A DNA stretch of 44,830 nucleotides from an uncultured bacterium (GTDB lineage: Bacteria > Patescibacteriota > Minisyncoccia > Phycocordibacterales > UBA6065), in NCBI GenBank assembly GCA_903842365.1, contig CAIMLU010000004.1:1-44830 (forward strand), read 5' to 3'. Positions 12,496-27,321 of this stretch are shown piece by piece. Made by a program: the position numbers and the translations under genes. A model generated the notes under the pieces. It was given only the letters and a program-made list of their open reading frames with translations. It searched no databases and was not told the DNA's origin. Within the stretch, counting starts at the first letter, position 1, and every line of letters begins with the position of its first letter.

Positions 12496-13383
12496 ATGCA
12501 ATCGAAAACTAAAATCGCAACGACGTTCGCAATCGCACTTGTTATTATCTCTATCGCCTTTGCTACTCGTGAAAAAAACAAGCCTGCAGTAAAAACCACC
12601 CAAGAAGAAGTTCGTGAAATTGTCCAGGCTGCACTACAAAAATCAATCAAAAATCCAGACGCCGAAGCGGTAAAAGCCTGGGAAGATTCAATCTACAAAA
12701 ATCACCCAGAAATGGATGAATTATTGAACGGTACATCGACCACAATTACACTGAGTAGCACCACACAACCAACAGCAACCGATCTCTTTGCGCGTGATTT
12801 GTTGACAAAATACATGGAAGCCAAGCAACAGGGCAAGGAAATCGATGCTCAGGTGCAAAAAGAAATTGTCGATGCAATCCTTGGAAAGACATATGTTATC
12901 GAAGAACCTGAATACGATGGAGCGGGCCTTACCACTATCGCAAACCCAACCCTCTCTGATTTTAAAATGTACGGAAATAAAATGGGTGTAGTAGCAAAAA
13001 CACCTTATCCAGCAAATGTTGTTCATGAAATTAACATATTTCAACAACTCTCACAGGGAGGGCTGAGCGATATGGACCTTGCAAGTCTTGCGGTTATCAA
13101 AAAACGCTATGAATCAATGCGTAGCGCATTTATTGCCATCTCTATTCCGCAAGAACTTACTGAATTTCACCTAAAAATCATTCGTGGTGTTGATGGAATA
13201 CTCAAAGCACTAGAAGGTGCAACCACCATCGACACTGACCCTATTGGATCTATGTCGAAAATAACAAGGTACCAAGAAGCCCTCGACACCATGACCGCAG
13301 CTATTATGGGCATAAAATCGAGCCTCATTGAAAACAATGTTTCATTCTCCCCAAATGAACCCGGTCATTTATTTATGGAATAA
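12496..13383 (+). CDS. hypothetical membrane-anchored helical protein (start of the T4SS-like locus)
   Basis: 295-aa ORF with N-terminal hydrophobic segment; TATACT at 12481. Confidence 0.8.
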   Translation: MQSKTKIATTFAIALVIISIAFATREKNKPAVKTTQEEVREIVQAALQKSIKNPDAEAVKAWEDSIYKNHPEMDELLNGTSTTITLSSTTQPTATDLFARDLLTKYMEAKQQGKEIDAQVQKEIVDAILGKTYVIEEPEYDGAGLTTIANPTLSDFKMYGNKMGVVAKTPYPANVVHEINIFQQLSQGGLSDMDLASLAVIKKRYESMRSAFIAISIPQELTEFHLKIIRGVDGILKALEGATTIDTDPIGSMSKITRYQEALDTMTAAIMGIKSSLIENNVSFSPNEPGHLFME

Positions 13384-13406
13384 GGTATACTTAAAGGAAT
13401 AATTCT

Positions 13407-15908
13407 ATGACCATGAAGGATGTTTTTAACAAATCAATTGCCGGTGCGCTTGTAGTTGCATTCATCGTGCCAGCGAGTTTCGCCTTCATGCCTAAAAAAG
13501 CGGAAGCTCAGCAGGGAAAAATAAGTGCTTGTGTTGCAGGTTTACTTACAGCAATAGGTGTATCAACGCCAGCATTCCTAAAAGACACCGTAGGGGTCTC
13601 CACAGGACACGGAGGTTCTGTTGTTGATGCAACAGACACTGGAAATTCAGGCGGAATTTCTTTCAACTCCTGTATCCTTCAACCCCTTGCAAAAATAATG
13701 ATTATTACACTCATCCGCCAGATCGGAGCGAGTGTTGTTGATTGGGTTAACAATGGTTTTGAAGGCAAACCGTCCTTTGTCACTGATTTTGAAGGAACCT
13801 TGCGCGATGCTGCTGATAATGCCCTCGGTGAATTTATCGAAGGATCAGAATTAGGTTGGCTCTGTTCAAATTTTTCATTCCAAATCCGCATCGCCCTTGC
13901 GATGAAATATAGCAAACCATGGAAAAGAAAGGCTCAGTGTACCCTTACAAAAATCAATCAAAATATTGATAATTTTGTTCAAAATAACGGAGGTGCTGGT
14001 TGGGATAACTGGTTAGAAGTGACCTCGGAACCTCAAAATAACTGGATCGGCGCTTATTATATGGCCGACTCAGAACTTGCAGCCAGGATGATGAAAGCAA
14101 CGGACATCAAAGAAAAACGCATCACCATGGGCGCGGGTTTTCTTGATTTTGAAACGTGTGACGATTGGGAAACAGACACAGAGGCAATGAACCGCGCATA
14201 TGGTACTCAGGGAGGAACATCTAACACAGTAAACACTAATACGTTTGGTACTCAGGGAGGAACATTTAACACAGTAAACACTAATACGTTTGGTACTCAG
14301 GGAGGAACATCTAACGCAGCAAACACTAATACATTCAATCTTGAACCAGCTTTTGCCCCCGCTGATTTAAGAACAAACGATGAGGTTTTAAATACTAAAT
14401 TTGAGACAACATTACTACCATCATCAAAACCAAAGTGTAAGAAATCATCGACAAAGACCCCAGGAACCATCATCGCAGGAAAATTGAATAGCACCTTTAT
14501 GCAAGGCGATATTCAAGCCGCAGTAGCGCAGGAAATTGATGACGTCATTGCTGCAACCCTGAACCAAATCGCAAAAAAAATGATGACAGGAGCAATGGGG
14601 CTTCTTGGCCTCTCAAAAAAGAAAGGTGGGTCAAATGTAAACTATGGTAAAAAATATGAAGCATTGTATTGGGGAGGACAAACACCCACATCAACAGAGG
14701 CTGCCGATACTGGCGCACAATCAGAAATGGATGCATACCGAAATGAAACGAGTGATTTCAATGCTACCCAGAACTTAATAAACACAAATTCTGACACCGT
14801 TAAAATCAACCAGTATACAGACCAAAAAGCACAAGAAGCGTACAACCAACAACAAGAACAGCTCAACAACATAACAGACCAGTTCACTGGCGTCGTCGAT
14901 GCATCAGAACGAAATGTTGCCCTTGGCAAGACAGCGACACAATCAACAACAGATGCTTCTGCAATGAACGCGGTAAACGGGATCACCACCGAAGGGTCAA
15001 ACACAGTATCAAAACCAGCATCAACCCACCAAGTCACAGCAGACGAAGCTCTTTATAGTGGAAACGCTGGTGACATTCGTCCATGGTGGCAAGTTGACCT
15101 TGGAAGAGTAGAGAAAATAAAAGAGGTTCGTATATACCCAGCTCAAAATAAGCCCGTAAACGTAACACTCGAGACATTTACCATCACTCTTTCAAACAAC
15201 CCAACTGATGCCTCGGCAAGCCCTACTTGGACAAGTGACGTCATTACAGGAACCGCAAACTATCCAATCAAAATTGCAATCCCAGCAACGGGCGCGTGGA
15301 GGTATGCCCGTATAACGAAAAACGCAAAAAAGGACACGTCATGCTACAACAACCCAGCATCATATCAATCTGCCGCATGTTATCACGCACTTGAATTGGC
15401 AGAGGTAGAGGTTATTGTTCCACTTGAAACCACAAACCTATTCCCAGGAACAGCCTCAACAAGTACAAGCTCTGGCACAAACACCGTAAATGGTGATTCA
15501 GGGAAACTTGTGTGGACCACAAATCAAAACAATATCCAGATTTCAAAAGGTAACCTAGTGTCGTTCAACCAAACACTTTCTGGGGCAAATAAATCAAACC
15601 TTACCATTACCACAACGCTCTACGAAGGAACAAAAAATATCACCTTTGGATCGCTTTTTAGCGTCCTAACAGTAGGGTGGGGCAATGGATCAACAGAGCG
15701 AAACTCAATGACGTTTGATAGCACAATGACCCACGGTGCACTCAAATTAACCAATGTATCAACAACAAACGCATCGCAATTTTTCCTCAAATACAACGGC
15801 CTTACCAAAACCTCTACAAAATCAGGAACATACCGAATGGAAGCGATTGTTACCGATGGGGCGGGGAATAACCTTGGCACACTCTCGACACAGTTTGTGA
15901 TACAATAA
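13407..15908 (+). CDS. large secreted protein with an F5/8-type C / F-type lectin-like domain
   Basis: signal peptide (KKAEA); NVALGKTATQS...AVNG...H...PWWQVDLG...RYARI...LELAEVEV. Confidence 0.75.
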   Translation: MTMKDVFNKSIAGALVVAFIVPASFAFMPKKAEAQQGKISACVAGLLTAIGVSTPAFLKDTVGVSTGHGGSVVDATDTGNSGGISFNSCILQPLAKIMIITLIRQIGASVVDWVNNGFEGKPSFVTDFEGTLRDAADNALGEFIEGSELGWLCSNFSFQIRIALAMKYSKPWKRKAQCTLTKINQNIDNFVQNNGGAGWDNWLEVTSEPQNNWIGAYYMADSELAARMMKATDIKEKRITMGAGFLDFETCDDWETDTEAMNRAYGTQGGTSNTVNTNTFGTQGGTFNTVNTNTFGTQGGTSNAANTNTFNLEPAFAPADLRTNDEVLNTKFETTLLPSSKPKCKKSSTKTPGTIIAGKLNSTFMQGDIQAAVAQEIDDVIAATLNQIAKKMMTGAMGLLGLSKKKGGSNVNYGKKYEALYWGGQTPTSTEAADTGAQSEMDAYRNETSDFNATQNLINTNSDTVKINQYTDQKAQEAYNQQQEQLNNITDQFTGVVDASERNVALGKTATQSTTDASAMNAVNGITTEGSNTVSKPASTHQVTADEALYSGNAGDIRPWWQVDLGRVEKIKEVRIYPAQNKPVNVTLETFTITLSNNPTDASASPTWTSDVITGTANYPIKIAIPATGAWRYARITKNAKKDTSCYNNPASYQSAACYHALELAEVEVIVPLETTNLFPGTASTSTSSGTNTVNGDSGKLVWTTNQNNIQISKGNLVSFNQTLSGANKSNLTITTTLYEGTKNITFGSLFSVLTVGWGNGSTERNSMTFDSTMTHGALKLTNVSTTNASQFFLKYNGLTKTSTKSGTYRMEAIVTDGAGNNLGTLSTQFVIQ
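14201..14335 (+). repeat. 3 x 45-bp in-frame tandem repeat (GTQGGTSNTVNTNTF)
   Basis: units start at 14201, 14246 and 14291; near-identical TGGTACTCAGGGAGGAACAT...AAACACTAATAC. Confidence 0.95.
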
Positions 15909-15914
15909 AAACCA

Positions 15915-18656
15915 ATGAAAAAGCTCTTGAGTAAAAAACATTCCATACTTACACTAACTATTATCGTGTTTGTGGTGTTTTTGCTTAGTCCTCAAACAGG
16001 AATTGCAGCTGATACCCTTGATGCACTCGGTACAATAGCAAACGTGCTAACAGCTCCTATGAATTTCATACAAGGTATATTTGGTCAAATACTTTATTTC
16101 GTTGTTCTATGGCCACTCAACCTATACGTACGCGCTAATGGTTTTGCCCTTGATGTTATTATAAGAATGACGTTTGGTTTTTCGGCCTTTTACAAAGATA
16201 GCCCCGCAATAAAAGCTGGTTGGGTCGCTGTACGTGATGTGTGTAACTTGTTCTTTATATTCATACTTATCTTTGCATCAATAAAGACAATCATCTATTC
16301 AAAGGTTCAAAAGGATCTCATCAAAAACACCATTCTTGGTGCCATCGCCATCAACTTTAGTATGTTTGTTGTTTTGGCAATGATTGATATTGGAAACATA
16401 CTTTCCATTTGGATTTATAATGCTATTTTGTCCGCAACAGGTACAAGTGGAGGTTTAGGATCAGCGCTTGGTGCAGCATTTAATCCAGCAAAATTTCTTG
16501 GATCAGGCAGCCTTGTACCAAGTGCAATAACCGATAATAGCGGACTCCAGGCAGTGATTATCCTTTGTGTTATAACATTCCTTATTGCACAAACCTTCAC
16601 AAAAGCAAACGCCCTCTTTATAGGACGAATGATTGCCTTTGTATTTCACATCATCCTTGCCCCCGTTGGAATGCTCTCTCTTTTTAAATTAGCACCGAAA
16701 GAATTTAGTGATGAATATGATTGGTGGAAAAACGTGAAAGAAGACGCCTTGATGCCCGTGTACTACCTCCTGCTTCTCTTTGTCTCAATTTACTTTACGA
16801 TTTCAGTAAAAGACACACTCTCAGCCACGAAGGCCGGTGACCTTATTGGTGCTGGAGGCAAGTTCCTGCAGGGTTCGAGTTTTGGCATTGTTGATTTCAT
16901 TATTTTCTACATTATCTATAAGCTTTTTGATCAAAGCTACACAATCGCAAAAAAACACAGTGGTAGTATCACTAGTAAAATAGGAGGGGCTATTAACGCT
17001 GCATTTGAGGTTGCAAAAGTAGTTGCCATGACCATAGCAACAGCGGGTGTAGGAACTGCTTTGCAGGGTAGTAGGCTAGGGCTAAGCCTTGCAAAAACAG
17101 CTGGTGGAACGGGTATGAGGGCTATGGCAGCGCAGAGAGTGCTTACAGCTGCAAGGGGCGCACGAAGCACCGGAACAATGATGACAAAGATAACAGGCGC
17201 CGTCAGTAAGAACTTTGATAAATACGACCTCAAAAAAGCTCCTGGCGTTGGACAGATCGTTGCTGATGCAACAAAAAGTAAAGCTGACATCTACCAAAAA
17301 GGCATGGGTGTAAAGGGTATAGTAGGCGGACTTGTACTATCGGCAAGAGAGACAGCAAAAAATAATCTCGAAAAATTCACCGAAAACGTTATTGCGCCAA
17401 ACAGTGAAGGTGACCTGGATATCGCAGGAAGACAGCGTATGGCTGAGTATGCCAAGAATTTTGTAGACAAAGACCCATCATCACTTCGAGGTCTTGCAGC
17501 TAAACTCATATCAAAAGCAGGAAAGGGAATAGACGCTGCTGCAAAGAAAGAAGTGGATGAGGCTATTGCTGAACAAATGGAAACAAAAGAGATTGAGGTT
17601 AATGGAGTAAAGACAAAAGTAGCCCCTCTTGAGCAAAAAATCACAGCAGATGTAAGTTCACATAAAACCCAAAGCACAATACGTGCACTTGGTGAAAACA
17701 AGAGTGCGATAAAGGAGCGAGAGGAAAAGATAAATAAAGAAAAAGAACCCATTATTGAGTCAGAGAACAAACTGACCCAAGAGATTGCTAACCTCAATAA
17801 AAACCTTGGGGACGTAAAAAAAACTGGTTCTCAATTAGAAACAAAAATGCGTGCAGAGGGTTTTGAAAAAGACCCAGAGAATCTAGAGGACAACTCAGGA
17901 CTCACGGACACCAGTGGAAAACCTATACCCACAACAATGAAAGGTCCTGGGGACAAAATAATGACAGTCGCTGAATACAAAGCCTTACATGCCGCCGCAA
18001 AAAATCGTATTGAACAAGAACACTCAGCGCGAATTACAGAGCTAGCGGGCGAAATAAGTAAAAAAGAAGAAGCACTGAGAGAAAATGAGGGCAAGAGAAA
18101 ACTGATAGAAAAAGAGACGGAGGACGTTCGCCTCGAGATTGAAGCACTCAATAATAATATCAGCGTTGGAGAGTTAAAAGATTACAAAGAAACAAAAAAG
18201 AAACTGGAAGAGATAGACAAAGGTTTATCCGAGGTTGGGTGGCAGTTTGTTCCTAATGAACCAGCAGAAACGACAAAAAGGAGACATGACCTTCTTGAGG
18301 GAAAGAATAAATTAGGAGAAATGGGTGAAAAAGTTGAACGAGCACGTAATCGTAAAGAAAAACCAAAAGGTGTGGACGGAAAGGAAATAGACACCCAAGG
18401 TATGACTGACGATGAAATTAGATACAAGGCTTCTATTGAACAGGTAAAAATGGAACTTCGTGGAGCTGCACTAAAAAACATAAACAAGGACCTGGGTGGT
18501 ACGAAAACATACAAAAATTACACAGAATTGAGCGAAGGTGTAAAAAAGGCACAAGATGATGAAGTAAAGAAAAATCGAGAATTAGTAGAGAAAAAACAAG
18601 CTGAGGAATACTCTAAACCAAAAGAAGAAAAGCCCCCTGAAGAAGAGAAAAAATAA
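15915..18656 (+). CDS. VirB6/TrbL-like polytopic membrane protein with a long charged coiled-coil tail
   Basis: GWVAVRDVCNLFFIFILIF...AINFSMFVV..MIDIGN pattern; about 7-8 TM segments then K/E-rich tail; T4SS context. Confidence 0.65.
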   Translation: MKKLLSKKHSILTLTIIVFVVFLLSPQTGIAADTLDALGTIANVLTAPMNFIQGIFGQILYFVVLWPLNLYVRANGFALDVIIRMTFGFSAFYKDSPAIKAGWVAVRDVCNLFFIFILIFASIKTIIYSKVQKDLIKNTILGAIAINFSMFVVLAMIDIGNILSIWIYNAILSATGTSGGLGSALGAAFNPAKFLGSGSLVPSAITDNSGLQAVIILCVITFLIAQTFTKANALFIGRMIAFVFHIILAPVGMLSLFKLAPKEFSDEYDWWKNVKEDALMPVYYLLLLFVSIYFTISVKDTLSATKAGDLIGAGGKFLQGSSFGIVDFIIFYIIYKLFDQSYTIAKKHSGSITSKIGGAINAAFEVAKVVAMTIATAGVGTALQGSRLGLSLAKTAGGTGMRAMAAQRVLTAARGARSTGTMMTKITGAVSKNFDKYDLKKAPGVGQIVADATKSKADIYQKGMGVKGIVGGLVLSARETAKNNLEKFTENVIAPNSEGDLDIAGRQRMAEYAKNFVDKDPSSLRGLAAKLISKAGKGIDAAAKKEVDEAIAEQMETKEIEVNGVKTKVAPLEQKITADVSSHKTQSTIRALGENKSAIKEREEKINKEKEPIIESENKLTQEIANLNKNLGDVKKTGSQLETKMRAEGFEKDPENLEDNSGLTDTSGKPIPTTMKGPGDKIMTVAEYKALHAAAKNRIEQEHSARITELAGEISKKEEALRENEGKRKLIEKETEDVRLEIEALNNNISVGELKDYKETKKKLEEIDKGLSEVGWQFVPNEPAETTKRRHDLLEGKNKLGEMGEKVERARNRKEKPKGVDGKEIDTQGMTDDEIRYKASIEQVKMELRGAALKNINKDLGGTKTYKNYTELSEGVKKAQDDEVKKNRELVEKKQAEEYSKPKEEKPPEEEKK

Positions 18657-18679
18657 ACCTGAAACTAAATAAAACAAAC

Positions 18680-19243
18680 ATGGAACCTGATCAGGAATTA
18701 GTAGCAAAAAAGTATGAAACACTACCCCAAGAGCTCAAAGAGCTCTTGGATTCTCCTGATGTTGGCGTTCAATTGCTTGAGATAGGTGCTCAAAACGGCC
18801 TCCATTACGATAAATTAGGGCTCTTGAGTAATGAAGTAATTAATGTGGTTCTTGGTGCAAAGGGACGTGATGATTTTATGTCAAACATAGAATCACTCCT
18901 CTCTATTGATCCACAAACCGCACAAAACATTACAAACGATGTAAACGAGAAAATACTCAAGCCAGTACAACACCTCTTGTTTGGGGAACACGAGGATCAT
19001 AAAGATATCAAAAAAGAAGATTTGCTTGCCGAAATTGAAAACCCAACCCCACACCAAACAAACAAAGTTGTATCGGTAGCAACACAAGTAAAAGCAGACA
19101 TTCCTCTTCCAGAAACCATTGATCCTGTTCAATCAATAATCGAGAAAAAACTATCAGAAGTCGTCTCCACACCGACCGAACACACGATTATTGAAGAAAA
19201 AAAGAAACCAAAGGTTGATCCATACCGAGAACCCATAGTGTAG
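18680..19243 (+). CDS. hypothetical protein with a C-terminal DPYREP motif
   Basis: 187 aa ending KVDPYREPIV. Confidence 0.8.
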   Translation: MEPDQELVAKKYETLPQELKELLDSPDVGVQLLEIGAQNGLHYDKLGLLSNEVINVVLGAKGRDDFMSNIESLLSIDPQTAQNITNDVNEKILKPVQHLLFGEHEDHKDIKKEDLLAEIENPTPHQTNKVVSVATQVKADIPLPETIDPVQSIIEKKLSEVVSTPTEHTIIEEKKKPKVDPYREPIV

Positions 19244-19250
19244 GATATAC

Positions 19251-19284
19251 GCAAAACAGGCCCACGTGGCCTGTTTTGCATTTT
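19251..19284 (+). terminator. intrinsic terminator
   Basis: GCAAAACAGGCC-CACGT-GGCCTGTTTTGC followed by ATTTT. Confidence 0.75.
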
Positions 19285-19312
19285 ATGCAATAGAGGGCGA
19301 TAATAGGTGTAT

Positions 19313-19765
19313 ATGCAGTTTCAAGTTCCCCAATTCATAGAAGTCGAAGATAAAATCTTTGGACCACTTACTTTGAAACAATTTATTTACCTTACAGGTA
19401 CTTTTGGTCTTGCGTTTGCCCTATATTCCCTGATAAGCAAAGTAAGTACTGTGCTGGGTATAATTGCAGGTATTCCATGCGTTGGTTTTGGTCTTGCCTT
19501 GGCATTCTATAAGTTCAACGAAAAACCCTTCCTCAATATTATTGAATCCGCGGTAAAGTTTTACTTCTCTGAAAAACTCTATATCTGGAAAAAGAAAGAG
19601 GAGACGAAACCACAAGAGACAATTCGAATAGTACAACAGATGGTAAATCCAAATTTTGCAATACCAAAACTTTCCGACAGTAGACTCAAAGACCTCACCT
19701 GGAGTCTCGACATCAAACAATCAACAACCCCACTTATGAATCAAAAGGGGCAGAATAACATATAG
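19313..19765 (+). CDS. PrgI family protein (VirB3-like)
   Basis: MQFQVPQFIEVEDKIFGPLTLKQF followed by two TM helices. Confidence 0.85.
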   Translation: MQFQVPQFIEVEDKIFGPLTLKQFIYLTGTFGLAFALYSLISKVSTVLGIIAGIPCVGFGLALAFYKFNEKPFLNIIESAVKFYFSEKLYIWKKKEETKPQETIRIVQQMVNPNFAIPKLSDSRLKDLTWSLDIKQSTTPLMNQKGQNNI

Positions 19766-19770
19766 CATCC

Positions 19771-20421
19771 ATGCCAACACCACCATCAAAAACAACCCAA
19801 GACTTCGTACCCATCAAAGAAATACGCCAAGGTGTGGCCGTTTTAAAAGATGGATCACTTCGTGGCATTGTCATGTGTTCTTCAATCAACTTCGCTCTCA
19901 AGTCATTTGAGGAACAACAATCAATACTCAACCAATTTCAAAGTTTCCTAAATGGACTCGATTTTTCAATCCAAATTTTTATTCAGTCACGAAAACTCGA
20001 CATACGACCATACATCGCCCTCCTCGAAGGTCGTCTCAAAGAGCAGGTGAGTGAGCTTCTTAAAATCCAAACGCGAGAATATATAAAATTTATCAAAGAT
20101 TTTTCCGAGAAGCAGAACATTATGACAAAAACGTTCTTTGTTGTTGTGCCTTATTCACCAACAATAGTGAGCGGCTCATCAAACCCACTCTCAAGTTTTT
20201 TGGGTGGAAACAACACTTCAACGGCAACCAATGCCACAGACAAAAAAATTGAAATCTTTGAGGAACATCGAAGTCAGCTTGAGCAACGTATGGGAATGAT
20301 TGAACAGGGATTGGCGGGATGTGGAGTGCGCACCGCAGAGTTAGGGACTGAAGAAATTGTCGAACTATTTTATAAGATATTCAACCCTGGGGATACGGAA
20401 AAACCTATTCCTTTAAACTAA
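19771..20421 (+). CDS. TraC/VirB4 N-terminal-like protein of the T4SS locus
   Basis: TQDFVPIKEIRQG...SINFALKS.EEQ...QFQSFLNGLDFSIQIFIQSRKLDI; lies between PrgI and the VirB4 ATPase. Confidence 0.7.
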   Translation: MPTPPSKTTQDFVPIKEIRQGVAVLKDGSLRGIVMCSSINFALKSFEEQQSILNQFQSFLNGLDFSIQIFIQSRKLDIRPYIALLEGRLKEQVSELLKIQTREYIKFIKDFSEKQNIMTKTFFVVVPYSPTIVSGSSNPLSSFLGGNNTSTATNATDKKIEIFEEHRSQLEQRMGMIEQGLAGCGVRTAELGTEEIVELFYKIFNPGDTEKPIPLN

Positions 20422-20428
20422 AAACCAC

Positions 20429-22246
20429 ATGGGAATATTTGATTCATTGTTTGGTAAAAAGAATGGCGTACAAAACGTATCCATTGCACCAATTCTTCCT
20501 CAGGAAATATATGAAGCAGGCATCCTTGAACTCAAAGATGTTATTGCACCATCCGCACTCAAAGTCTCACCGCGTGAGCTCAACCTCGGCGACAAGATTT
20601 GTCGTAGTTTTTTCGTTATATCATACCCACGATTTCTCACCGAGAGCTGGTTTGCACCAATCATAAACATTGATAAGGTTTTTAACATATCGATTTACAT
20701 ACACCCAATCGACACAGCAACCGTACTTCGCCAATTTCAAAAAAAAGTTGCAGAGGTTCAAAGCCAGATAGTCGAGCGTGAGAGGAAGGGTCTTGTACGT
20801 GACCCAATGCTCGACACCGCATATCAGGACCTTGAAGGACTTCGTGATCAACTCCAACAAGCACAGGAGAAACTCTTTGAAGTGGGTCTCTATATCACTA
20901 TTTACGCAGAAAAAGAAACAGAGCTCGACAAGATTGAGTCTGAAATCAAATCAATCCTCGAGTCAAAAATGGTATATATTAAACCAGCTCTTTTCCAACA
21001 AGAACAAGGTTTTAAATCAAATATTCCAACAGCATCAGATGAACTCTTGGTCCATTCCAAACTCAATTCAGCGCCACTTTCATCGCTCTTCCCATTTGTC
21101 TCATTTGACCTCACTTCAGACAAGGGGATCCTCTACGGTGTAAATAGACATAATGCATCGCTTGTACTCTTTGATAGGTTTTCACTTGAAAACTATAATT
21201 CGATTACATTTGCAAAATCAGGTTCTGGAAAATCTTACTGTACCAAACTCGAGATCCTTCGAACACTCATGTTTGATACTGAAATTATTATCATTGACCC
21301 TGAAAGGGAATATGAATTCCTTGCGGAATCAGTTGGTGGCAAATACTTCAACATCTCACTCAACTCTGAACACCATATTAATCCATTTGATCTTCCACCT
21401 ATCCAAGAGGATGAATCACCTGCGGATGTGCTTCGTAGCAACATCATTAACCTTGTGGGAATGTTCCGAATAATGATGGGAGGACTCACCTCAGAAGAAG
21501 ACGCGATTGTCGATCGCGCGATCACAGAAACATATGCGCTTAAAGACATTACTCCTGATTCAGATTTTTCAGGTATAGACGCACCACTCCTCTCTGATTT
21601 CGAACTTGTACTTGCGGGAATGGAGGGAGGTGAATCGCTTGCTCAAAAACTTACAAAGTTTACAAAGGGAACATGGGCTGGTTTTATCAACAGACCAACA
21701 AACGTTGATATTAACAGCAAACTTGTGGTCTTCTCACTCCGCGACATGGAAGAAGAAATTAAGCCCGTTGCGATGTATATCGTGACTCACCACATCTGGA
21801 CCGTAGTAAGGAAGAATAAACGAAAGCGCCTCCTTGTTATCGATGAAGCATGGCTCATGATGAAGTCTGATGACACAGCGTCATTCCTCCTCGGGCTCGT
21901 AAAACGTGGTCGTAAATATGGTTTAGGAATAGCAACTATCACCCAAGACGTTGACGACTTCCTAAAATCACAATACGGGCTACCGATTATTACGAACTCA
22001 TCGATGCAAATACTCCTCAAGCAGTCGCCAACATCCATCGATAAACTCCAGCAAATATTTCACCTAACCGACGAAGAGAAATACCTTCTCTTGGAATCAC
22101 AGATAGGTGAGGGAATCTTCTTTGTTGGACTCAAACACGTGGCAATTAAAATTATTGCGTCGTACACCGAAGATCAAATCATCACATCGGACCCATTCCA
22201 AATTCTCGCCATAAAAGAGGCACAGAGAGCGAAAATAGGGCAGTAA
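20429..22246 (+). CDS. VirB4-like conjugal-transfer ATPase
   Basis: Walker A AKSGSGKS, IIIDPEREY, INPFDL, Walker B LLVIDEAW, KRGRKY, TITQDV. Confidence 0.9.
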   Translation: MGIFDSLFGKKNGVQNVSIAPILPQEIYEAGILELKDVIAPSALKVSPRELNLGDKICRSFFVISYPRFLTESWFAPIINIDKVFNISIYIHPIDTATVLRQFQKKVAEVQSQIVERERKGLVRDPMLDTAYQDLEGLRDQLQQAQEKLFEVGLYITIYAEKETELDKIESEIKSILESKMVYIKPALFQQEQGFKSNIPTASDELLVHSKLNSAPLSSLFPFVSFDLTSDKGILYGVNRHNASLVLFDRFSLENYNSITFAKSGSGKSYCTKLEILRTLMFDTEIIIIDPEREYEFLAESVGGKYFNISLNSEHHINPFDLPPIQEDESPADVLRSNIINLVGMFRIMMGGLTSEEDAIVDRAITETYALKDITPDSDFSGIDAPLLSDFELVLAGMEGGESLAQKLTKFTKGTWAGFINRPTNVDINSKLVVFSLRDMEEEIKPVAMYIVTHHIWTVVRKNKRKRLLVIDEAWLMMKSDDTASFLLGLVKRGRKYGLGIATITQDVDDFLKSQYGLPIITNSSMQILLKQSPTSIDKLQQIFHLTDEEKYLLLESQIGEGIFFVGLKHVAIKIIASYTEDQIITSDPFQILAIKEAQRAKIGQ

Positions 22247-22290
22247 ATAACAAAAGAATCCCCAAAATCGGGGATTCTTTTGTTATTTAC
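22243..22290 (+). terminator. terminator (perfect 21-bp inverted repeat)
   Basis: GTAAATAACAAAAGAATCCCC-AAAATC-GGGGATTCTTTTGTTATTTAC. Confidence 0.85.
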
Positions 22291-22322
22291 ACAACCAACC
22301 ACATGGTATACTTGTACGTATC

Positions 22323-23318
22323 ATGAATAGATTTTTCGCTGTTGTTGCTATTTTTTTGGTCAGCATTATTGCAACACCTTTTGTTGTACAAGCCCAAGCA
22401 ATAGGTTTCGATAACGAAGTCACAATCCTCACCATCCCCGAGTACCCAAAACCATTTGAGACAATGACGCTCAAGGCACGAAGTTTTTCAACCGATCTTG
22501 ATATTGCTCAATTTAATTGGATAGTGAACGGAAAAACCTATAAACAGGGTACTGGAGTCAAAGACATTAGCGTAACTATGGGTAAACCAGGAACCCTTAC
22601 TGTCGTAAGCGTGGTGATAAAAACAAAAAACGGACAGACAACAACTCAAACTTTTTCATTTCGACCAGCTGACGTAACACTCCTTTGGGAAGCAGACACA
22701 TACAAACCACCTTTTTACAGAGGACACACCACCGCCGCCTTTGGGAGCACATTCCGTATTACAGCTATCCCAGAATTTTTTGATAAAAAAGGTGTCCGGA
22801 TGAATCCAAAAGACCTTGTCTATACATGGAAAAAGAATTACGAGATTGTTGGTGAAGCATCAGGGTATGGAAAGGATAGTTTTATCACAACGAAAACTGG
22901 ATACCTCGACGAGGACGAAAACATATCCGTGGAAGTTTCTTCTCCACGTGAATCGGTTATAGGTAGTACTCACGTTACCATATCACCTACAACCCCAAAA
23001 GTTCTTTTCTACGAAAATAACCCTGCCCTTGGTGTACTTTTTAATAAGGAATTAGGGGGTAGTGTCAACACAGATGCGAGCAGTATTGACCTATTCACGG
23101 CACCATTCGGTATGTCACAATCTAATAGGAACAACCCTATAAACATAGATTGGTCATCTGGAAACACATCTCTCACCGACTTTTTAAGTAAACGATTTAT
23201 CACCATAGACAACAGACTCAACTTAGTACCACTCTCAGTTCAATTCCAAAGCACTAAAAAATTACTCCAAAGTGCCACTGGACAAATTGTTGTTTCATTC
23301 ACAAAATCAAATGAGTAA
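22323..23318 (+). CDS. secreted beta-rich (Ig/PKD-like repeat) protein
   Basis: signal peptide ending AQA; repeated W-containing strands (FNWIVNG, YTWKKN, IDWSSG); TGgTATACT promoter at 22304. Confidence 0.75.
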   Translation: MNRFFAVVAIFLVSIIATPFVVQAQAIGFDNEVTILTIPEYPKPFETMTLKARSFSTDLDIAQFNWIVNGKTYKQGTGVKDISVTMGKPGTLTVVSVVIKTKNGQTTTQTFSFRPADVTLLWEADTYKPPFYRGHTTAAFGSTFRITAIPEFFDKKGVRMNPKDLVYTWKKNYEIVGEASGYGKDSFITTKTGYLDEDENISVEVSSPRESVIGSTHVTISPTTPKVLFYENNPALGVLFNKELGGSVNTDASSIDLFTAPFGMSQSNRNNPINIDWSSGNTSLTDFLSKRFITIDNRLNLVPLSVQFQSTKKLLQSATGQIVVSFTKSNE

Positions 23319-24792
23319 CATAAAAAAAATACTTTTCATCGTCCTTTTATTTGTGTTAATTGGATCAACACCGGTCTACGCAGAAACAACAAGGAATTCA
23401 ATGCGGATGGTTTTTGATGCGGTTTTTGCTACTGGGCCAATTAAATATGAACCAATCACCAATATTCCCGGTGTTACCGATGTGCACCAAAACGGACAAC
23501 CTGCCAACCAAAATCCTGCTGAAATTTTCACTAGTTTATATAAATTTGCAATCGGAATAGCCACTATACTTGCTGTTATTATGATTATGTGGGGAGGTTT
23601 TGAATACATGACAACAGAAGCCTTTACCGGTAAAAACAGTGCAAAAGATCGTATAACATACTCCTTTGTTGGTCTCATCCTTTTGTTAGGATCATACATA
23701 ATACTCAACACCATCAATAGAAACCTACTCACATTTAAAATTACCTTTCCAACGGCAGGAGAAACTGGGATGAACACTGCTGTTACAGCATCACAAGACG
23801 CTCTCAATAAATTTGAAGAAGATAGGGAGACTGCATTGAACACACTTGCAAAGGTAAATGGAGCAAAACGCCTCCTTGAAGAAACAGAAAAAGATTTAAG
23901 TGACGTCAATGCCCAAATGGCACCGCTTGAGGAACGAATAAAAATGGGTAAAGAACTCTCCAAAACCGAAACAGAACTACTAGAAAACCTCACAACACGA
24001 AAAGAAGAGCTTTTAAAACAACAGACAGAGGATCAATCTTTGTATGCCCAAAATACAGAGGGATTAAAAAAACAACTAGACAATCAGTTTACTACAGCTC
24101 TAGATAGAGGATTAACTGATTCAGCTAAAAACATCATGGCAATTCAAAAAAACCAAACAGTGGTGCTTGAAGAATACATAACTCGCGTAAAACCAGCACT
24201 CCAAAGTCAAAAAACTCAACTTGAGGCAAAAATAGCTCAAGTGGGAGAAAGTAATCCAGAGGCACAAGGGTTAAAAAACCAACTAGCCGTCGTCAACGAA
24301 AAACTTGCAGCTGTTACAAAAAATGAGGATGTGATCAGCTCACAAAAACTTGATGCCTACAAACAAGAAGCGGAGGTTGCAATACTAGAGACAAAAAACG
24401 TACAGTGGTGGCAATCAATCAAAAACACTGTCTATGACGCGGAACAAAGTAAGGAAAGGATAAACGAAAATACAACCTATAAAGCCCTCGAAACACCATA
24501 TCCAGCAGACTTCAAAAATACAGTAAATGAAAAACTAGAGGACGCCCTTACTGATTTTAATGAGAAAAGAATAAACGATAAAATAAAAAATGCAGAAGGG
24601 AAGTATAAAGTTTCTTTAAATTCACCTGAGTTTAAAGAAGTGCGTGGCAAAATAATTGAAGGATCAAGGGCCGCTTTTACGAAAGTGCAGTTGACTATCG
24701 AAAACCGAAAAGATGTTAAAATACAAGAAGATAACAGTATTTTACAAGCAACTATGGTTGAAAACCCTGATGGCACTGTAGACATAAAATAG
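23311..24792 (+). CDS. VirB2/TrbC-like pilin domain fused to a long coiled coil
   Basis: signal ending VYA; LYKFAIGIATILAVIMIMWGGFEYMT...AKDRI...GLILLLGSYIILNTIN two-helix pilin pattern; start set to ATG 23311. Confidence 0.75.
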   Translation: MSNIKKILFIVLLFVLIGSTPVYAETTRNSMRMVFDAVFATGPIKYEPITNIPGVTDVHQNGQPANQNPAEIFTSLYKFAIGIATILAVIMIMWGGFEYMTTEAFTGKNSAKDRITYSFVGLILLLGSYIILNTINRNLLTFKITFPTAGETGMNTAVTASQDALNKFEEDRETALNTLAKVNGAKRLLEETEKDLSDVNAQMAPLEERIKMGKELSKTETELLENLTTRKEELLKQQTEDQSLYAQNTEGLKKQLDNQFTTALDRGLTDSAKNIMAIQKNQTVVLEEYITRVKPALQSQKTQLEAKIAQVGESNPEAQGLKNQLAVVNEKLAAVTKNEDVISSQKLDAYKQEAEVAILETKNVQWWQSIKNTVYDAEQSKERINENTTYKALETPYPADFKNTVNEKLEDALTDFNEKRINDKIKNAEGKYKVSLNSPEFKEVRGKIIEGSRAAFTKVQLTIENRKDVKIQEDNSILQATMVENPDGTVDIK

Positions 24793-24799
24793 AAAAGGT

Positions 24800-26020
24800 A
24801 TGAAAAAAATTCTCATTGGTATAAGCATTTTGTTGTGCGTCGGTATGGTGATATGGTTTTTCTTCTTTCAAGGTAATGTTGAACAAAACAATACCCCCAC
24901 AAAGAGTGATACCTCTAGTAGCATATTCCCTTTTGGGGAAGGAAACATTGTAAAAACAAAGCCTCAAAAACCAAAAACATCTGATATTAGTGAAGTAAAT
25001 AAGACACCTGATCAGGAATACCTTCCAATACTCAGAAAAATTTGGGATAAACCAGTCGCTGGTGGTGTTATTTTTGACGACGGAAAGTCTACTAAAATCA
25101 GATTCGTTGAACGCTCAACGGGCCATATTTATGAGACGGAGAAGTACTTACCAAAAACAACACGTCTCTCGAATACAACCATACCTCGTGTTGGGGAGGC
25201 ATTGTGGCAAAACGATGGATCAAAAGTTCTCTTGCGTTATTTACGTGACGACAACGAAACGATTCGAACCTTTTCTGGAATTGTGCCAACCACGACAAAT
25301 AGCACGATAGATGGTGTTTTTCTAGCGGACAATATTCAATCACCAGCACTTTTCAAAGACAAGATTGCCTACATAACAACCTCGGTTGATGGGGCAACTG
25401 TTATAACGGCGAACATGGATGGGACTAAAAAAACAGCCATCTTTACCTCACCCTCAAACGAATGGGAGATTTCATGGACTAATCCAAACTCATTAGCCTT
25501 ATGGAGTTCACCAAGCATTGTTTCACCTGGGGCTTTATATTCTCTTAACACAACGAAAGGAACGTATAACCGTGTGGCCTCTGAGGTATATGGAGGTGAG
25601 GGTAAGCTAAACAAAAATGGTAGTTTAATGCTCATTACAGGATCAAAAAACAGTGGATTAGGTACAGCGGTATTCGATGTAAAGAGTGGTGATAAAAAAG
25701 TTTTGGATATAGGAACCGTGGTTGATAAGTGTACATGGAGCCCAATCGCCACATCAACCGTATACTGTGCAGTTCCAGATACATTAACACAAGGCAATTA
25801 CCCAGACGATTGGTATCAAGGACTTATATCAACAGGGGACAGTGTGTGGCGAATTGATACAATAACAGGCTCAAAGGAAAGAATCTTTAGCCCAACAAAA
25901 ACTGAACTTGAAGATCCAATTGATGTAACACATCTTACTATAAACAACAAAGGTGATACGTTGTTGTTTATGAACAAAAAGGACCAGACGCTGTGGTCCT
26001 ACGACATATACGCATTTTAA
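24800..26020 (+). CDS. membrane-anchored beta-propeller-like hypothetical protein
   Basis: N-terminal TM, linker, beta-strand repeats; KCTWS...VYCAVP...PDDWYQG. Confidence 0.7.
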   Translation: MKKILIGISILLCVGMVIWFFFFQGNVEQNNTPTKSDTSSSIFPFGEGNIVKTKPQKPKTSDISEVNKTPDQEYLPILRKIWDKPVAGGVIFDDGKSTKIRFVERSTGHIYETEKYLPKTTRLSNTTIPRVGEALWQNDGSKVLLRYLRDDNETIRTFSGIVPTTTNSTIDGVFLADNIQSPALFKDKIAYITTSVDGATVITANMDGTKKTAIFTSPSNEWEISWTNPNSLALWSSPSIVSPGALYSLNTTKGTYNRVASEVYGGEGKLNKNGSLMLITGSKNSGLGTAVFDVKSGDKKVLDIGTVVDKCTWSPIATSTVYCAVPDTLTQGNYPDDWYQGLISTGDSVWRIDTITGSKERIFSPTKTELEDPIDVTHLTINNKGDTLLFMNKKDQTLWSYDIYAF

Positions 26021-26079: not shown

Positions 26080-26808
26080 TTAAGCTTTCTTCAAACCTTC
26101 TTTTTCCAACTGCTTTCTAACAACATATTCCTGACCAATCATAAACACATTGCTCGTGATAAAGTATATAGCAACAGCGGCGGTGGCATTGTATGCAATA
26201 AAAAGCATCATAATAGGAAAAACGTACTTCATTTGAAACTGAAGCATGGCATTCATATCACCCATAACAGATGCCCCCATTTTCTCCTTCTTTTGTGCTT
26301 TCGGCATAACCATAACACTTTGAATGTACTGTGTAACAGCCGTCACAACAGCAAGAGGGATGTTTTTAGACGTTATATCAACAAGGCCAAGGAAAGACGT
26401 TTTAATGACCTCTGGAACATGTATGAAAGAGTAAAGGATACTTGTATTGATTTCTGTTAAACCATGTGAGGAAAAAATCTGATACAGAGCCAAGAGGATT
26501 GGAATTTGTATAAACAAAACAACAATTCCGGCGAACGGGTTAATTCCTTTTGTTTTATAGAGAGCCATTGTTTGTCGTGCCTGCTCTTCTTTGTTGTCTT
26601 TATGCTTTTCTTTAATAGCATTGAGCTCTGGCTCTACTGTTTTCATTAAAATCTGCGTGCGGGCTGATTTTTTAGAAAGGGGAAACAAAACAACCTTTAC
26701 AAATATAGTAAAAACAATAATCACCATACCTGCATCAAGGAAGGAAAATTTACCGAGCAAAAACACCAAAGCATTGTAGAGCGGGTTGAATATAATGGTA
26801 CTGAACAT
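26080..26808 (-). CDS. yidC: membrane protein insertase YidC
   Basis: IIVFTIFVKVVLFPL, PELNAIKEK, GINPFAG, IQIPILLALY, AIYFITSN; start ATG 26808; synteny. Confidence 0.95.
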   Translation of the reverse strand: MFSTIIFNPLYNALVFLLGKFSFLDAGMVIIVFTIFVKVVLFPLSKKSARTQILMKTVEPELNAIKEKHKDNKEEQARQTMALYKTKGINPFAGIVVLFIQIPILLALYQIFSSHGLTEINTSILYSFIHVPEVIKTSFLGLVDITSKNIPLAVVTAVTQYIQSVMVMPKAQKKEKMGASVMGDMNAMLQFQMKYVFPIMMLFIAYNATAAVAIYFITSNVFMIGQEYVVRKQLEKEGLKKA

Positions 26809-26818
26809 GGTGTGTATA

Positions 26819-27172: not shown

Positions 27173-27186
27173 AGATAGGTGGTAAA

Positions 27187-27321
27187 TTATGCAGAAAGCT
27201 TCTTGCGGCCTTTGTGCATCCTACGCTTTATGGTGTTTTTACCATTTGTCGATGACATCCTCTTTAGGAAGCCGTGAGAGCGTGCGTGTTTACGAACCTT
27301 TGGTTTTGTTTTGATTGCCAT
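27187..27321 (-). CDS. rpmH: 50S ribosomal protein L34
   Basis: 44 aa, HGFLKRMSSTNG...RRMHKGRKKLS; divergent from dnaA. Confidence 0.92.
   Translation of the reverse strand: MAIKTKPKVRKHARSHGFLKRMSSTNGKNTIKRRMHKGRKKLSA

What the first reader, a model, noticed from the sequence alone, without database searches (positions are those of the whole stretch)
12496..26020. Chromosomal, relaxase-free T4SS-like machine next to oriC, with unusual accessory subunits
Seen: co-oriented VirB6-like, PrgI, TraC-N-like, VirB4 ATPase and pilin genes mixed with lectin-, Ig- and propeller-like exported proteins and a DPYREP protein. It is split into several units by terminators and promoters, sits between rsmA and yidC, and has no integrase, relaxase, VirD4 or att repeats in the window. 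Known: Patescibacteria carry a conserved T4SS related to monoderm conjugation systems, of unresolved function. Inference: a domesticated host-contact or uptake apparatus rather than an ICE. The uncharacterised flanking genes are candidate new subunits.
Basis: partly seen in the sequence, partly recalled or inferred. Interest (0 to 1): 0.7.

Follow-up and report, generated by a model that had tools for sequence, protein, structure and literature searches.

The report
Known Patescibacteria secretion machine beside origin
This is the chromosomal, non-conjugative type IV secretion gene cluster that ultra-small Patescibacteria carry next to their replication origin, already described in 2023-2025, here with five conserved but still unnamed partner genes.

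Summary
Window 12496-26020 carries ten co-oriented genes: a VirB6-like protein, PrgI/VirB3, TrsD, VirB4, a VirB2-type pilin-domain protein and five unannotated proteins. They lie beside yidC-rnpA-rpmH-dnaA-dnaN. The genome is a 0.81-Mb Paceibacteria-type MAG.

The interpretation (domesticated, relaxase-free, origin-proximal T4SS) is supported but already published (PMC12102498; PMC10633639; PMC12857230). This scan has reached the same verdict on other genomes.

What I add:
- All ten genes are syntenic wherever the flank allows a test: 49/49 upstream and 57-58/58 downstream, among 80 related loci.
- VirB4 is the best-conserved protein of the neighbourhood (median 77.5% identity, against 58% for DnaA).
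- TrsD plus VirB4 tile one VirB4 model, so this is a split ATPase.
- The 187-aa protein belongs to a large family with a C-terminal DxYREP[IV] tail. I found no description of that motif.
- The machine is dispersed. A five-gene pilin array and two VirD4-like ATPase genes lie on other contigs, so the genome is not VirD4-free.
- No relaxase was found with five Pfam families.
- A small membrane gene that follows virB4 in most relatives is missing here.

Function was not tested. A host-contact conduit is inferred.

The parts
12496..13383 (+). 295-aa membrane-anchored helical protein (one N-terminal TM helix; C-terminal four-helix bundle); no known family
   Evidence: No Pfam or NCBIfam family. TM helix at 5-23. 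AF2 model mean pLDDT 83.4. Residues 150-283 match generic four-helix bundles at Z 8.5-10.5, and Foldseek gives nothing at E<=0.001. Found in 49/49 loci that keep rsmA upstream.
13407..15908 (+). 833-aa exported protein: conserved Cys-containing N-domain (about residues 95-400) of no known family, a 3 x 15-residue repeat, then an F5/8 type C (discoidin) lectin domain and a beta-rich tail
   Evidence: Pfam F5_F8_type_C_2 27.8 bits, equal to the cut-off. N-domain invariant W113 G117 G120 P122 N211 G244 T351-P352-G353, and four nearly invariant Cys. AF2 model poor, pLDDT 57. Lectin domain in 3/40 order-level members but in 40/49 closer relatives. Found in 49/49 loci.
15915..18656 (+). 913-aa extended VirB6-like polytopic membrane protein with a roughly 400-aa highly charged C-terminal region
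   Evidence: Six hydrophobic helices at 14-296. Residues 520-913 hold 79 K+R and 83 D+E. The N-terminal profile's only PDB hit at E<=1 is TrwI (VirB6 of R388), E 0.0018. Found in 49/49 loci and 16/20 phylum-level loci.
18680..19243 (+). 187-aa cytoplasmic protein: helical N-domain, disordered linker, C-terminal DPYREP motif
   Evidence: No TM helix. Alignment A3. The motif is unique in the genome. Family of 9050 representative clusters at E<=0.001 and 1367 at E<=1e-30. Strict motif in 100 of the best 150. Found in 49/49 loci.
19251..19279 (+). terminator-like hairpin between the 187-aa gene and prgI
   Evidence: 12-bp stem followed by a T-rich tail. Fold -22.4 kcal/mol, z -4.0, 0 of 200 shuffles as good.
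19307..19765 (+). PrgI / VirB3-like small membrane protein
   Evidence: Pfam PrgI E 2.8e-10, 41 bits against cut-off 27. Median 50.5% identity in relatives.
19771..20421 (+). TrsD: the detached N-terminal domain of VirB4
   Evidence: NCBIfam VirB4_plasma positions 101-233/894, E 3.5e-12; TrsD E 1.8e-9; conju_CD1110 positions 2-117/752, E 2.2e-5. Median 63% identity.
20429..22246 (+). VirB4 ATPase (C-terminal two thirds of a canonical VirB4)
   Evidence: NCBIfam conju_CD1110 382 bits against cut-off 325, positions 185-732/752. PDB 4ag5 E 7.3e-49 and TrwK E 8e-5. Median 77.5% identity.
22244..22289 (+). 20-bp perfect hairpin directly after the virB4 stop codon
   Evidence: Fold -31.9 kcal/mol, z -8.6, 0 of 200 shuffles as good. 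Sequence read.
22323..23318 (+). 331-aa exported protein of tandem Ig/PKD-like domains
   Evidence: Signal-like helix at 4-22. The Atlas model (pLDDT 0.81) matches Minisyncoccota-only clusters at TM 0.80-0.88 and PKD/Y_Y_Y proteins only weakly. Found in 58/58 loci that keep yidC downstream.
23311..24792 (+). pilin-domain protein: signal peptide, VirB2-type two-helix pilin module, then a 340-aa charged extension. The ORF list starts it at GTG 23272; ATG 23311 is the more likely start.
   Evidence: Pfam T4SS_pilin 28.7 bits against cut-off 26.6; TrbC E 1.9e-4. Helices at 92-110 and 128-146; C-terminal region 49 K+R and 59 D+E. Found in 57/58 loci; length in relatives 110-487 aa.
24800..26020 (+). 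406-aa membrane-anchored PD40/TolB-like beta-propeller
   Evidence: Helix at 4-22. NCBIfam TolB E 2.2e-4, below cut-off. Atlas structure matches to PD40/DPP-IV-N-like clusters, TM 0.66-0.73. Found in 58/58 loci and 8/20 phylum-level loci.
26080..30140 (.). flank: yidC(-), rnpA(-), rpmH(-), dnaA(+), dnaN(+), with three DnaA-box-like sites at 28812-28865
   Evidence: Pfam. DnaA-box search. Cumulative GC-skew minimum at about 23-28 kb.
9110..10027 (+). flank: rsmA/ksgA
   Evidence: Pfam RrnaAD E 8.2e-49.

Best explanation
[quoted passage not shown] It is not a mobile element.

Shown by homology:
- A cytoplasmic-membrane core of an extended VirB6-like channel protein, PrgI/VirB3 and a VirB4 ATPase split into TrsD plus VirB4.
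- VirB2-type pilin proteins: one in the locus, five in an array on contig C9.
- Two VirD4-like ATPase genes elsewhere (C18, C52).

Inferred:
- The four exported or membrane-anchored unannotated proteins (helical-bundle 295 aa, Cys-domain/lectin 833 aa, Ig-tandem 331 aa, propeller 406 aa) form or decorate the wall-spanning, host-facing part.
- The cytoplasmic 187-aa protein docks on a partner through its C-terminal DxYREP[IV] peptide.
- The genes are transcribed as about three units.

For the mechanism, I judge a pilus-tipped conduit that takes up host macromolecules (nucleic acids) most likely, at about 0.45. Export of effector proteins follows at about 0.3, and adhesion only at about 0.15.
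For: Component homologies.

Split VirB4: TrsD and VirB4 hit positions 2-117 and 185-732 of the same 752-position CD1110 model.

Synteny across 80 loci: 49/49 for each of the six upstream genes; 58/58, 57/58 and 58/58 for the three downstream genes; colinear in 79/80.

Vertical, near-universal presence: 59/61 relatives at 71-85% identity. 192/201 phylum-sample genomes at 43-57% outside the order (the count includes one unpublished genome, G214; without it 191/200).

VirB4 and TrsD are better conserved than DnaA, DnaN, RsmA and YidC in the same loci: 77.5 and 63 against 58, 45, 47 and 40%.

No relaxase. No att-like repeats. No GC anomaly.

Gaps of 5-23 nt inside the units, and two strong hairpins between them.

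In five phylum-level loci that lack the yidC/dnaA context (L089, L092, L093, L094, L097), the propeller gene still lies 4.6-7.8 kb downstream of virB4.

Literature:
- The same system was described phylum-wide (PMC12102498, sections 13-15 read).
- The T4SS locus SEML1_0006-0019 is essential for epibiotic growth of S. epibionticum (PMC10633639, passages read).
- Tubular structures that may be T4SS pili, and host RNA uptake, in a cultivated member (bioRxiv 10.64898/2026.06.21.733656, abstract, section 10 and passages read).
Against: - No function was tested here, and no RNA data could be found for this organism.
- The 80 loci were the best 80 of 349 VirB4-confirmed relatives, so VirB4 identity in that set is selected upward.
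- The whole rsmA-to-dnaN block is syntenic in the order, so synteny alone does not prove that the accessory genes belong to the machine.
- Outside the order the accessory families were detected only patchily: 2-8 of 20 loci.
- VirB6 homology rests on a weak profile hit, E 0.0018.
- The 833-aa N-domain could not be modelled, pLDDT 57.
- The direction of transport and the substrate are unknown. In S. epibionticum the authors favoured protein export or another role (PMC10633639, passage read).
Confidence: 0.85

Rival explanations
1. The locus is an integrated conjugative element or its decayed remnant.
For: The components derive from monoderm conjugation systems: CD1110-family VirB4 and TrsD. VirD4-like ATPase genes exist in the genome.
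Against: No relaxase with PF03432, PF01076, PF08751, PF03389 or PF02486 in a 99%-complete genome. The only tyrosine recombinase is on contig C58. No bounding repeats. GC equals the flanks. The locus sits at the same site between rsmA and yidC-dnaA across the order. All ten ORFs are intact, and VirB4 is more conserved than DnaA. The VirD4-like gene sits among glycosyltransferase genes, not mobile-element genes.
Confidence: 0.03
2. It is the same machine, but it works outward: it exports effector proteins or toxins into the host cell rather than importing host material.
For: T4SSs without a relaxase are usually protein translocators (established knowledge). Wang et al. suggested protein export or an alternative role because no coupling or relaxase proteins were recognised (PMC10633639, passage read). 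The 187-aa protein, with a disordered region and a conserved C-terminal peptide, could itself be a substrate or an adaptor for substrates (inference).
Against: No candidate effector genes lie in the locus. Patescibacteria lack nucleotide synthesis, and a cultivated member takes up host RNA (bioRxiv 10.64898/2026.06.21.733656, abstract read). ComEC is dispensable for growth in S. epibionticum, so another import route is needed (PMC12102498 section 15; PMC12857230 passages). None of this is direct evidence on direction.
Confidence: 0.3
3. The five unannotated genes are ordinary surface or envelope proteins that merely sit in a conserved origin-proximal block. They are not T4SS subunits.
For: The whole block from rsmA to dnaN is syntenic, so co-occurrence is partly explained by conserved gene order. 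The accessory proteins evolve fast, at 24-35% median identity. Their C-terminal parts vary: the lectin is in 3/40 members, and the pilin-protein length ranges 110-487 aa. The order-level profiles found them in only 2-8 of 20 phylum-level loci.
Against: They are interleaved with core genes, co-oriented, with 5-23-nt gaps. The propeller, the 187-aa and the 295-aa families stay next to virB4 in other classes where the flanks differ. The 187-aa family is very large, 1367 clusters at E<=1e-30, as expected of a phylum-wide partner. Fast evolution of exposed parts beside a frozen ATPase is typical of host-contact machines (inference).
Confidence: 0.2

Closest known systems
Patescibacteria-clade T4SS (Quinonero-Coronel et al. 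2025, PMC12102498; experimental example Southlakia epibionticum SEML1_0006-0019, Wang et al. 2023, PMC10633639)
   Same: VirB4 + TrsD + PrgI/VirB3 + VirB6 + VirB2-like pilin. Chromosomal. No relaxase. T4CP homologues far from virB4. Next to dnaA, dnaN, rnpA, rpmH and ksgA. A separate pilin array.
   Different: Nothing in the core differs. The five accessory families are not named in the text I read; Fig. 6 shows unannotated neighbours in grey, and Tables S3/S4 could not be opened. This family lacks the small membrane gene that follows virB4 in 60 of 73 relatives. The in-locus pilin module carries a 340-aa charged extension.
MPF-FATA conjugation systems of monoderms (pGO1 TrsC/TrsD/TrsE, pCF10 PrgH/PrgI/PrgJ, CTn2 CD1110)
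   Same: VirB4 passes the CD1110 model (382 bits against cut-off 325). TrsD-type separate N-domain gene. PrgI. No outer-membrane core.
   Different: No relaxase. No adjacent coupling protein. No recognisable VirB1 hydrolase or VirB8-like protein in the locus. VirB2-type pilins are present, which Gram-positive systems lack (PMC12857230 passages). Not on a mobile element.
Mycoplasma ICE transfer genes (NCBIfam VirB4_plasma Mbov_0397 family; Mbov_0395 pilin-like protein)
   Same: TrsD and VirB4 tile the Mbov_0397 model (positions 101-233 and 279-893 of 894; E 3.5e-12 and 7.3e-78). The pilin module hits the Mbov_0395 pilin-like model weakly, E 0.0027.
   Different: All these scores are below the curated cut-offs. 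The window's system is not on an ICE.
DNA-uptake T4SS relatives (archaeal Ced system; Helicobacter ComB; the comparison with ComB is recalled, not tested)
   Same: The proposed inward direction of transport, and the absence of a relaxase. Weak hits to CedB (VirB4, E 4e-11) and CedD (VirD4-like protein, E 1.2e-7).
   Different: Scores are far below cut-off (42 against 700 bits). No other Ced or ComB components were tested or found. Works-like only, not membership.

Membership tests
Patescibacteria-clade T4SS (as described in PMC12102498) | VirB4 ATPase related to MPF-FATA VirB4 | tested here: met
   conju_CD1110 382 bits against cut-off 325. PDB 4ag5 E 7.3e-49. 43-85% identity to VirB4 across the phylum sample. 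No tree was built.
Patescibacteria-clade T4SS (as described in PMC12102498) | TrsD gene next to virB4 | tested here: met
   19771-20421, 7 nt upstream of virB4. NCBIfam TrsD E 1.8e-9 (below cut-off); VirB4_plasma E 3.5e-12. TraC_F_IV in 7/30 members.
Patescibacteria-clade T4SS (as described in PMC12102498) | PrgI/VirB3 next to virB4 | tested here: met
   Pfam PrgI 41 bits against cut-off 27.
Patescibacteria-clade T4SS (as described in PMC12102498) | VirB6-like polytopic membrane protein | tested here: met
   Six hydrophobic helices. The only PDB profile hit is TrwI, E 0.0018. Weak but specific. No Pfam hit.
Patescibacteria-clade T4SS (as described in PMC12102498) | VirB2-like pilin(s) | tested here: met
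   T4SS_pilin 28.7 bits against cut-off 26.6 in the locus. Five more pilin genes in tandem on C9, four of them over the cut-off.
Patescibacteria-clade T4SS (as described in PMC12102498) | No relaxase; T4CP homologue, if any, far from virB4 | tested here: met
   0 hits with five relaxase Pfam families. MOBC, MOBH, MOBB and MOBM profiles were not available. VirD4-like genes on C18 and C52.
Patescibacteria-clade T4SS (as described in PMC12102498) | Chromosomal position near dnaA/dnaN/rnpA/rpmH/ksgA (Paceibacteria) | tested here: met
   Pfam on the flanks. Same order in the relatives.
Integrated conjugative element (MPF-FATA type) | Relaxase and coupling protein in or next to the T4SS genes | tested here: not met
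   The VirD4-like genes are on other contigs, one of them among glycosyltransferase genes.
Integrated conjugative element (MPF-FATA type) | Integrase and att repeats bounding the element; patchy distribution | tested here: not met
   No recombinase in the window. One on C58. No flanking repeats. virB4 present in 59/61 relatives.
Diderm VirB/D4 (MPF-T) T4SS | Outer-membrane core VirB7/9/10 and VirB11 ATPase | tested here: not met
   No such Pfam family on any ORF of the cluster. The T2SSE ATPase at 37331-39058 carries an MshEN domain and is read as a type IV pilus ATPase.
VirB8-like / PrgL-like component | N-terminal TM helix plus NTF2-like alpha+beta domain | tested here: inconclusive
   The 295-aa TM protein models as all-helical. 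The 331-aa protein is Ig-like. The other accessory proteins were not modelled or gave a poor model.

The most novel reading that the evidence does not exclude
The five unannotated families are true, order-wide subunits of a ten-gene Paceibacteria T4SS module. The 187-aa family, with at least 1367 clusters, is a so far undescribed cytoplasmic T4SS adaptor. Its invariant C-terminal DxYREP[IV] peptide would dock on the split VirB4 ATPase or on one of the orphan VirD4-like ATPases, linking the channel to the cargo (host nucleic acid coming in, or proteins going out).
Probability: 0.35. Interest if true: 0.6.

Novelty: new member of a known kind. Interest (0 to 1): 0.3.

Why it matters
The Patescibacteria T4SS is essential for epibiotic growth in the one species tested, and its substrate and direction of transport are unknown. 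This window adds nothing to the published core picture.

It does give a clean ten-gene parts list that is syntenic across a whole order. It also shows an ATPase frozen at about 78% identity beside fast-evolving exposed proteins.

Finally, it points to a large family of cytoplasmic proteins with a conserved C-terminal docking peptide. These are concrete candidates for pull-downs, cryo-ET assignment and depletion experiments in the few cultivable relatives.

Tried and rejected
- Complex prediction (VirB4 + TrsD + the 187-aa protein) was not available. No binding test was made.
- The AF2 model of the 833-aa N-domain was too poor to search, pLDDT 57.
- PDB profile searches for the 295-, 331-, 187-aa and TrsD families gave nothing meaningful.
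- For the 295-aa model, Foldseek found no match at E<=0.001. VIA-align gave only generic four-helix bundles, Z<=10.5, in the range the tool itself calls common for helical bundles. I therefore name no fold family, and VirB5- or IpaD-like ideas were dropped.
- hhalign of TrsD against VirB4 showed no internal paralogy, probability 0.2. I read TrsD as the detached N-domain, not a duplicate.
- Pfam on the 41 propeller-family members and the 40 lectin-family members gave no shared family.
- The small membrane gene that follows virB4 in relatives was sought in the genome. tblastn gave one 48-residue hit at E 2e-4, and the best hmmsearch hit was E 0.004. Neither is convincing.
- No RNA holder was listed for this DNA.
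- The supplements of PMC12102498 could not be read. I therefore cannot say whether the accessory families equal its PrgF, TrsJ, Gbs1347, Gbs1350 or Orf17 hits.
- DnaA-box matches are not above chance window-wide: 20 found against 14 +/- 4 in shuffles. Only the cluster of three at 28812-28865 is used.
- One script timed out and one failed on a missing file. Both were rerun with faster settings.
Full report
**What is there**

The window is a whole 44.8-kb contig (C4) of an 813-kb, 66-contig genome rated 99% complete. The nearest public relatives are MAGs labelled Paceibacterota, Parcubacteria or Taylorbacteria.

Between 12496 and 26020 lie ten + strand ORFs. The gaps are 5-23 nt, except for 63 nt after 19243 and 76 nt after 22246, and there is one overlap.

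Pfam and NCBIfam give these assignments:
- PrgI/VirB3: 41 bits, cut-off 27.
- VirB4: conju_CD1110 382 bits, cut-off 325. PDB 4ag5 E 7.3e-49 and TrwK E 8e-5.
- TrsD: E 1.8e-9, below cut-off.
- VirB2-type pilin module: 28.7 bits, cut-off 26.6.
- F5/8 type C lectin domain: 27.8 bits, exactly at cut-off.

TrsD and VirB4 match positions 2-117 and 185-732 of the same 752-position CD1110 model. They also match positions 101-233 and 279-893 of the 894-position Mycoplasma VirB4 model. Together they are a split VirB4. hhalign finds no paralogy between them.

The 913-aa protein has six hydrophobic helices and a roughly 400-aa highly charged tail. A profile of its N-terminal 420 residues hits one PDB sequence only: TrwI, the VirB6 of R388, at E 0.0018.

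**Surroundings**

Downstream lie yidC(-), rnpA(-), rpmH(-), dnaA and dnaN. Three DnaA-box-like sites cluster in the dnaA-dnaN spacer. The cumulative GC-skew minimum falls at about 23-28 kb.

Upstream, rsmA is not adjacent. Three reverse-strand genes for membrane or exported proteins (10068-12603, one with a TIG domain) lie in between.

Two intergenic hairpins stand out:
- 19251-19279: z -4.0.
- 22244-22289: a perfect 20-bp stem, z -8.6.

They suggest three units: 295-833-913-187, then prgI-trsD-virB4, then 331-pilin-406. Promoter-like matches are fewer than in shuffles, 33 against 41, so I claim no promoters.

**Not a mobile element**

- Five relaxase Pfam families give no hit in the genome.
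- The one tyrosine recombinase is on C58.
- No att-like repeats flank the cluster.
- GC is 0.407 against 0.428 and 0.401 in the flanks.
- virB4 is found in 59 of 61 relatives of the order at 71-85% identity.
- It is found in 192 of 201 genomes drawn from the phylum, at 43-57% identity outside the order. One of these, G214, is flagged unpublished; without it the count is 191 of 200.

**The genome is not VirD4-free**

A 698-aa protein on C18 passes the cut-offs of TrwB_AAD_bind, T4SS-DNA_transf and TraG-D_C. It lies among glycosyltransferase genes and is found in 41 of 41 relatives. A 43%-identical paralogue sits on C52.

Five further VirB2-type pilin genes lie in tandem on C9. ComEC is on C15. 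The machine is therefore dispersed over at least four loci, as the 2025 survey reports for the phylum.

**Do the accessory genes travel with virB4?**

I fetched the best 80 of 349 VirB4-confirmed loci. This set is selected by VirB4 similarity. I searched their ORFs with jackhmmer.

- In the 49 loci that keep rsmA upstream, each of the six upstream genes is found in 49/49.
- In the 58 loci that keep yidC downstream, the Ig protein is found in 58/58, the pilin protein in 57/58 and the propeller in 58/58.
- Order is colinear in 79 of 80 loci.

Median best-HSP identities:

| Protein | Median identity |
|---|---|
| VirB4 | 77.5% |
| TrsD | 63% |
| DnaA | 58% |
| PrgI | 50.5% |
| RsmA | 47% |
| DnaN | 45% |
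| YidC | 40% |
| Accessory proteins | 24-35% |

I then picked 20 loci from the phylum sample for long contigs: 6 of the same class and 14 of other classes. Order-level profiles found the following:

| Family | Loci with a hit (of 20) |
|---|---|
| TrsD | 18 |
| PrgI | 17 |
| VirB6-like | 16 |
| Pilin | 14 |
| Propeller (406 aa) | 8 |
| 187-aa family | 7 |
| 295-aa family | 6 |
| Ig family (331 aa) | 3 |
| 833-aa family | 2 |

In five of these loci the propeller gene accompanies virB4 without the yidC/dnaA context. This argues for a link to the T4SS rather than to the origin region.

I also picked eight loci from the relatives: seven of the window's own family and one of another family of the order. 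Seven of the eight hold all ten genes; the eighth is cut by a contig end.

**What the accessory proteins look like**

- 295 aa: one N-terminal TM helix and a confident all-helical model (pLDDT 83.4). Its last 135 residues form a four-helix bundle. The matches are generic, and it is not NTF2/VirB8-like.
- 833 aa: a conserved N-domain with invariant W, G, G, P, N, G and TPG positions and four nearly invariant cysteines. It has no Pfam, NCBIfam or PDB relative and only a poor model. Its C-terminal lectin part is variable: 3 of 40 order-level members carry it, against 40 of 49 closer relatives.
- 331 aa: tandem Ig/PKD-like domains, in clusters known only from Minisyncoccota.
- 406 aa: a membrane-anchored PD40/TolB-like propeller.
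- 187 aa: no TM helix. It has a helical N-domain of about 110 residues, a disordered P/K-rich linker of variable length and a C-terminal DPYREP motif. The motif occurs once in the genome.

A profile search of 1.84 billion representatives with the 187-aa family finds 9050 proteins at E<=0.001 and 1367 at E<=1e-30. The disordered linker may inflate the weaker tier. Of the best 150, 100 end in DP[YF][RK][ED] within 13 residues of the C-terminus, and of the 25 others that I printed, 23 show close variants such as DSYREPI or DPYHEPI. Among order-level homologues the strict motif is present in 45 of 65.

A full-text search for 'DPYREP' found only unrelated software papers.

**How it most likely works**

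Shown: the homology-based core, the synteny, the vertical inheritance and the absence of conjugation genes.

Inferred:
- VirB6-like, PrgI and TrsD+VirB4 form the membrane translocon and motor.
- Pilins build an external tube.
- The four exported proteins form or decorate the wall-crossing, host-facing part. Their fast evolution fits host contact.
- The 187-aa protein is a cytoplasmic adaptor, or a substrate, that docks through its tail.

Direction and cargo are open. I favour uptake of host nucleic acid (about 0.45). The phylum lacks nucleotide synthesis. ComEC is dispensable in S. epibionticum (PMC12102498 section 15; PMC12857230 passages). A cultivated member takes up host RNA and shows tubular structures that may be T4SS pili (bioRxiv 10.64898/2026.06.21.733656, abstract, section 10 and passages).

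Effector export (about 0.3) was the option Wang et al. leaned to (PMC10633639, passage). A metatranscriptome study of Paceibacteria enrichments lists T4SS pilins and a galactose-binding-fold protein among the most expressed unknown genes (PMC10936435, one passage read).

**Comparison with what is known**

PMC12102498 (outline and sections 13-15 read) already reports the following:
- VirB4, TrsD, PrgI/VirB3, VirB6 and VirB2-like pilins.
- Pilin arrays.
- T4CP homologues far from virB4.
- Relaxases in only 103 genomes.
- Enrichment of dnaA, dnaN, rnpA, ksgA and rpmH near virB4 in Paceibacteria.

The FEMS review PMC12857230 (passages read) repeats this. Six earlier reports of this scan on other genomes reached the same verdict. 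I had formed mine from the papers before reading them.

The finding is therefore a correct reading of a known system.

What I could not find in print:
- The order-wide ten-gene synteny.
- The DxYREP-tailed family.
- The family-level absence of the small membrane gene after virB4.

That small gene is present in 60 of 73 relatives. After virB4 it is absent in all seven loci of the window's own family and present in the one locus from another family. It was not found in this genome.

The paper's supplementary tables were unreadable here and may cover some of this.

**Verdict**

Novelty is low: a new member of a known kind. Interest is 0.3. The residual value lies in the accessory parts list and the C-terminal motif family.

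Noticed in passing
window 22246-22323; relatives L002-L081: In 60 of 73 related loci, an ORF of about 150 aa lies directly after virB4. It has 2-3 TM helices and a tail with GGVRxP-like repeats. The window has only a 76-nt spacer with a 20-bp hairpin there, and no convincing homologue was found in the genome. After virB4 the gene is also missing in all seven loci of the window's own family; one of them (L118) has a hit 2.2 kb upstream of virB4 instead.
   Followed up: partly
window 10068-12603 (- strand): Three reverse-strand genes lie between rsmA and the T4SS cluster: 131 aa, 424 aa with a TIG/IPT domain, and about 225-280 aa. The latter two each have one predicted N-terminal hydrophobic helix. 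Homologues of the first two were found in 4 of 8 close-relative loci and rarely in the wider order. The listed TTG start of the third overlaps the first T4SS gene and is probably too far upstream.
   Followed up: partly
G000:C9:3861-6055 (- strand): A tandem array of five VirB2-type pilin genes (81-184 aa, each with a signal peptide and two helices), downstream of a 430-aa exported protein and near gyrA.
   Followed up: partly
G000:C18:5899-7995 and G000:C52:21823-23079: Two VirD4/TraD-like ATPase genes far from the T4SS locus. The C18 copy sits inside a block of glycosyltransferase and methyltransferase genes and is found in 41 of 41 relatives. Its Pfam match starts at residue 37, which leaves little room for the usual N-terminal membrane anchor.
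   Followed up: partly
window 20429-22246 versus 27415-28812: Across the same related loci, VirB4 (median 77.5% identity) and TrsD (63%) are better conserved than DnaA (58%), DnaN (45%), RsmA (47%) and YidC (40%). The locus set was chosen by VirB4 similarity, so the gap is somewhat inflated. The unselected sample gives 71-85%.
   Followed up: partly
window 14201-14335: Three tandem copies of a 45-nt unit (93-100% identical) inside the 833-aa gene. They encode a 15-residue G/T/N-rich repeat between the conserved N-domain and the lectin domain.
   Followed up: no
window 5835-6824 (- strand): A LysM x2 + M23 peptidase gene 5.7 kb upstream of the cluster. PMC12102498 notes that VirB1-like candidates in Patescibacteria often carry exactly these domains, so it could be the wall-opening enzyme of the system (paper section 13).
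   Followed up: no
window 164-2317 and 37331-39058: A polynucleotide phosphorylase gene (RNase_PH, KH, S1) and a PilB-like T2SSE/MshEN ATPase gene lie in the same contig. The first is relevant to the host-RNA-feeding hypothesis of the 2026 preprint, the second to type IV pili.
   Followed up: no
window 28812-28865: Three DnaA-box-like 9-mers, one mismatch each, lie within 54 bp of the dnaA-dnaN spacer. This is a likely oriC position, about 2.8 kb from the end of the T4SS cluster. Window-wide the motif count is not above chance.
   Followed up: no
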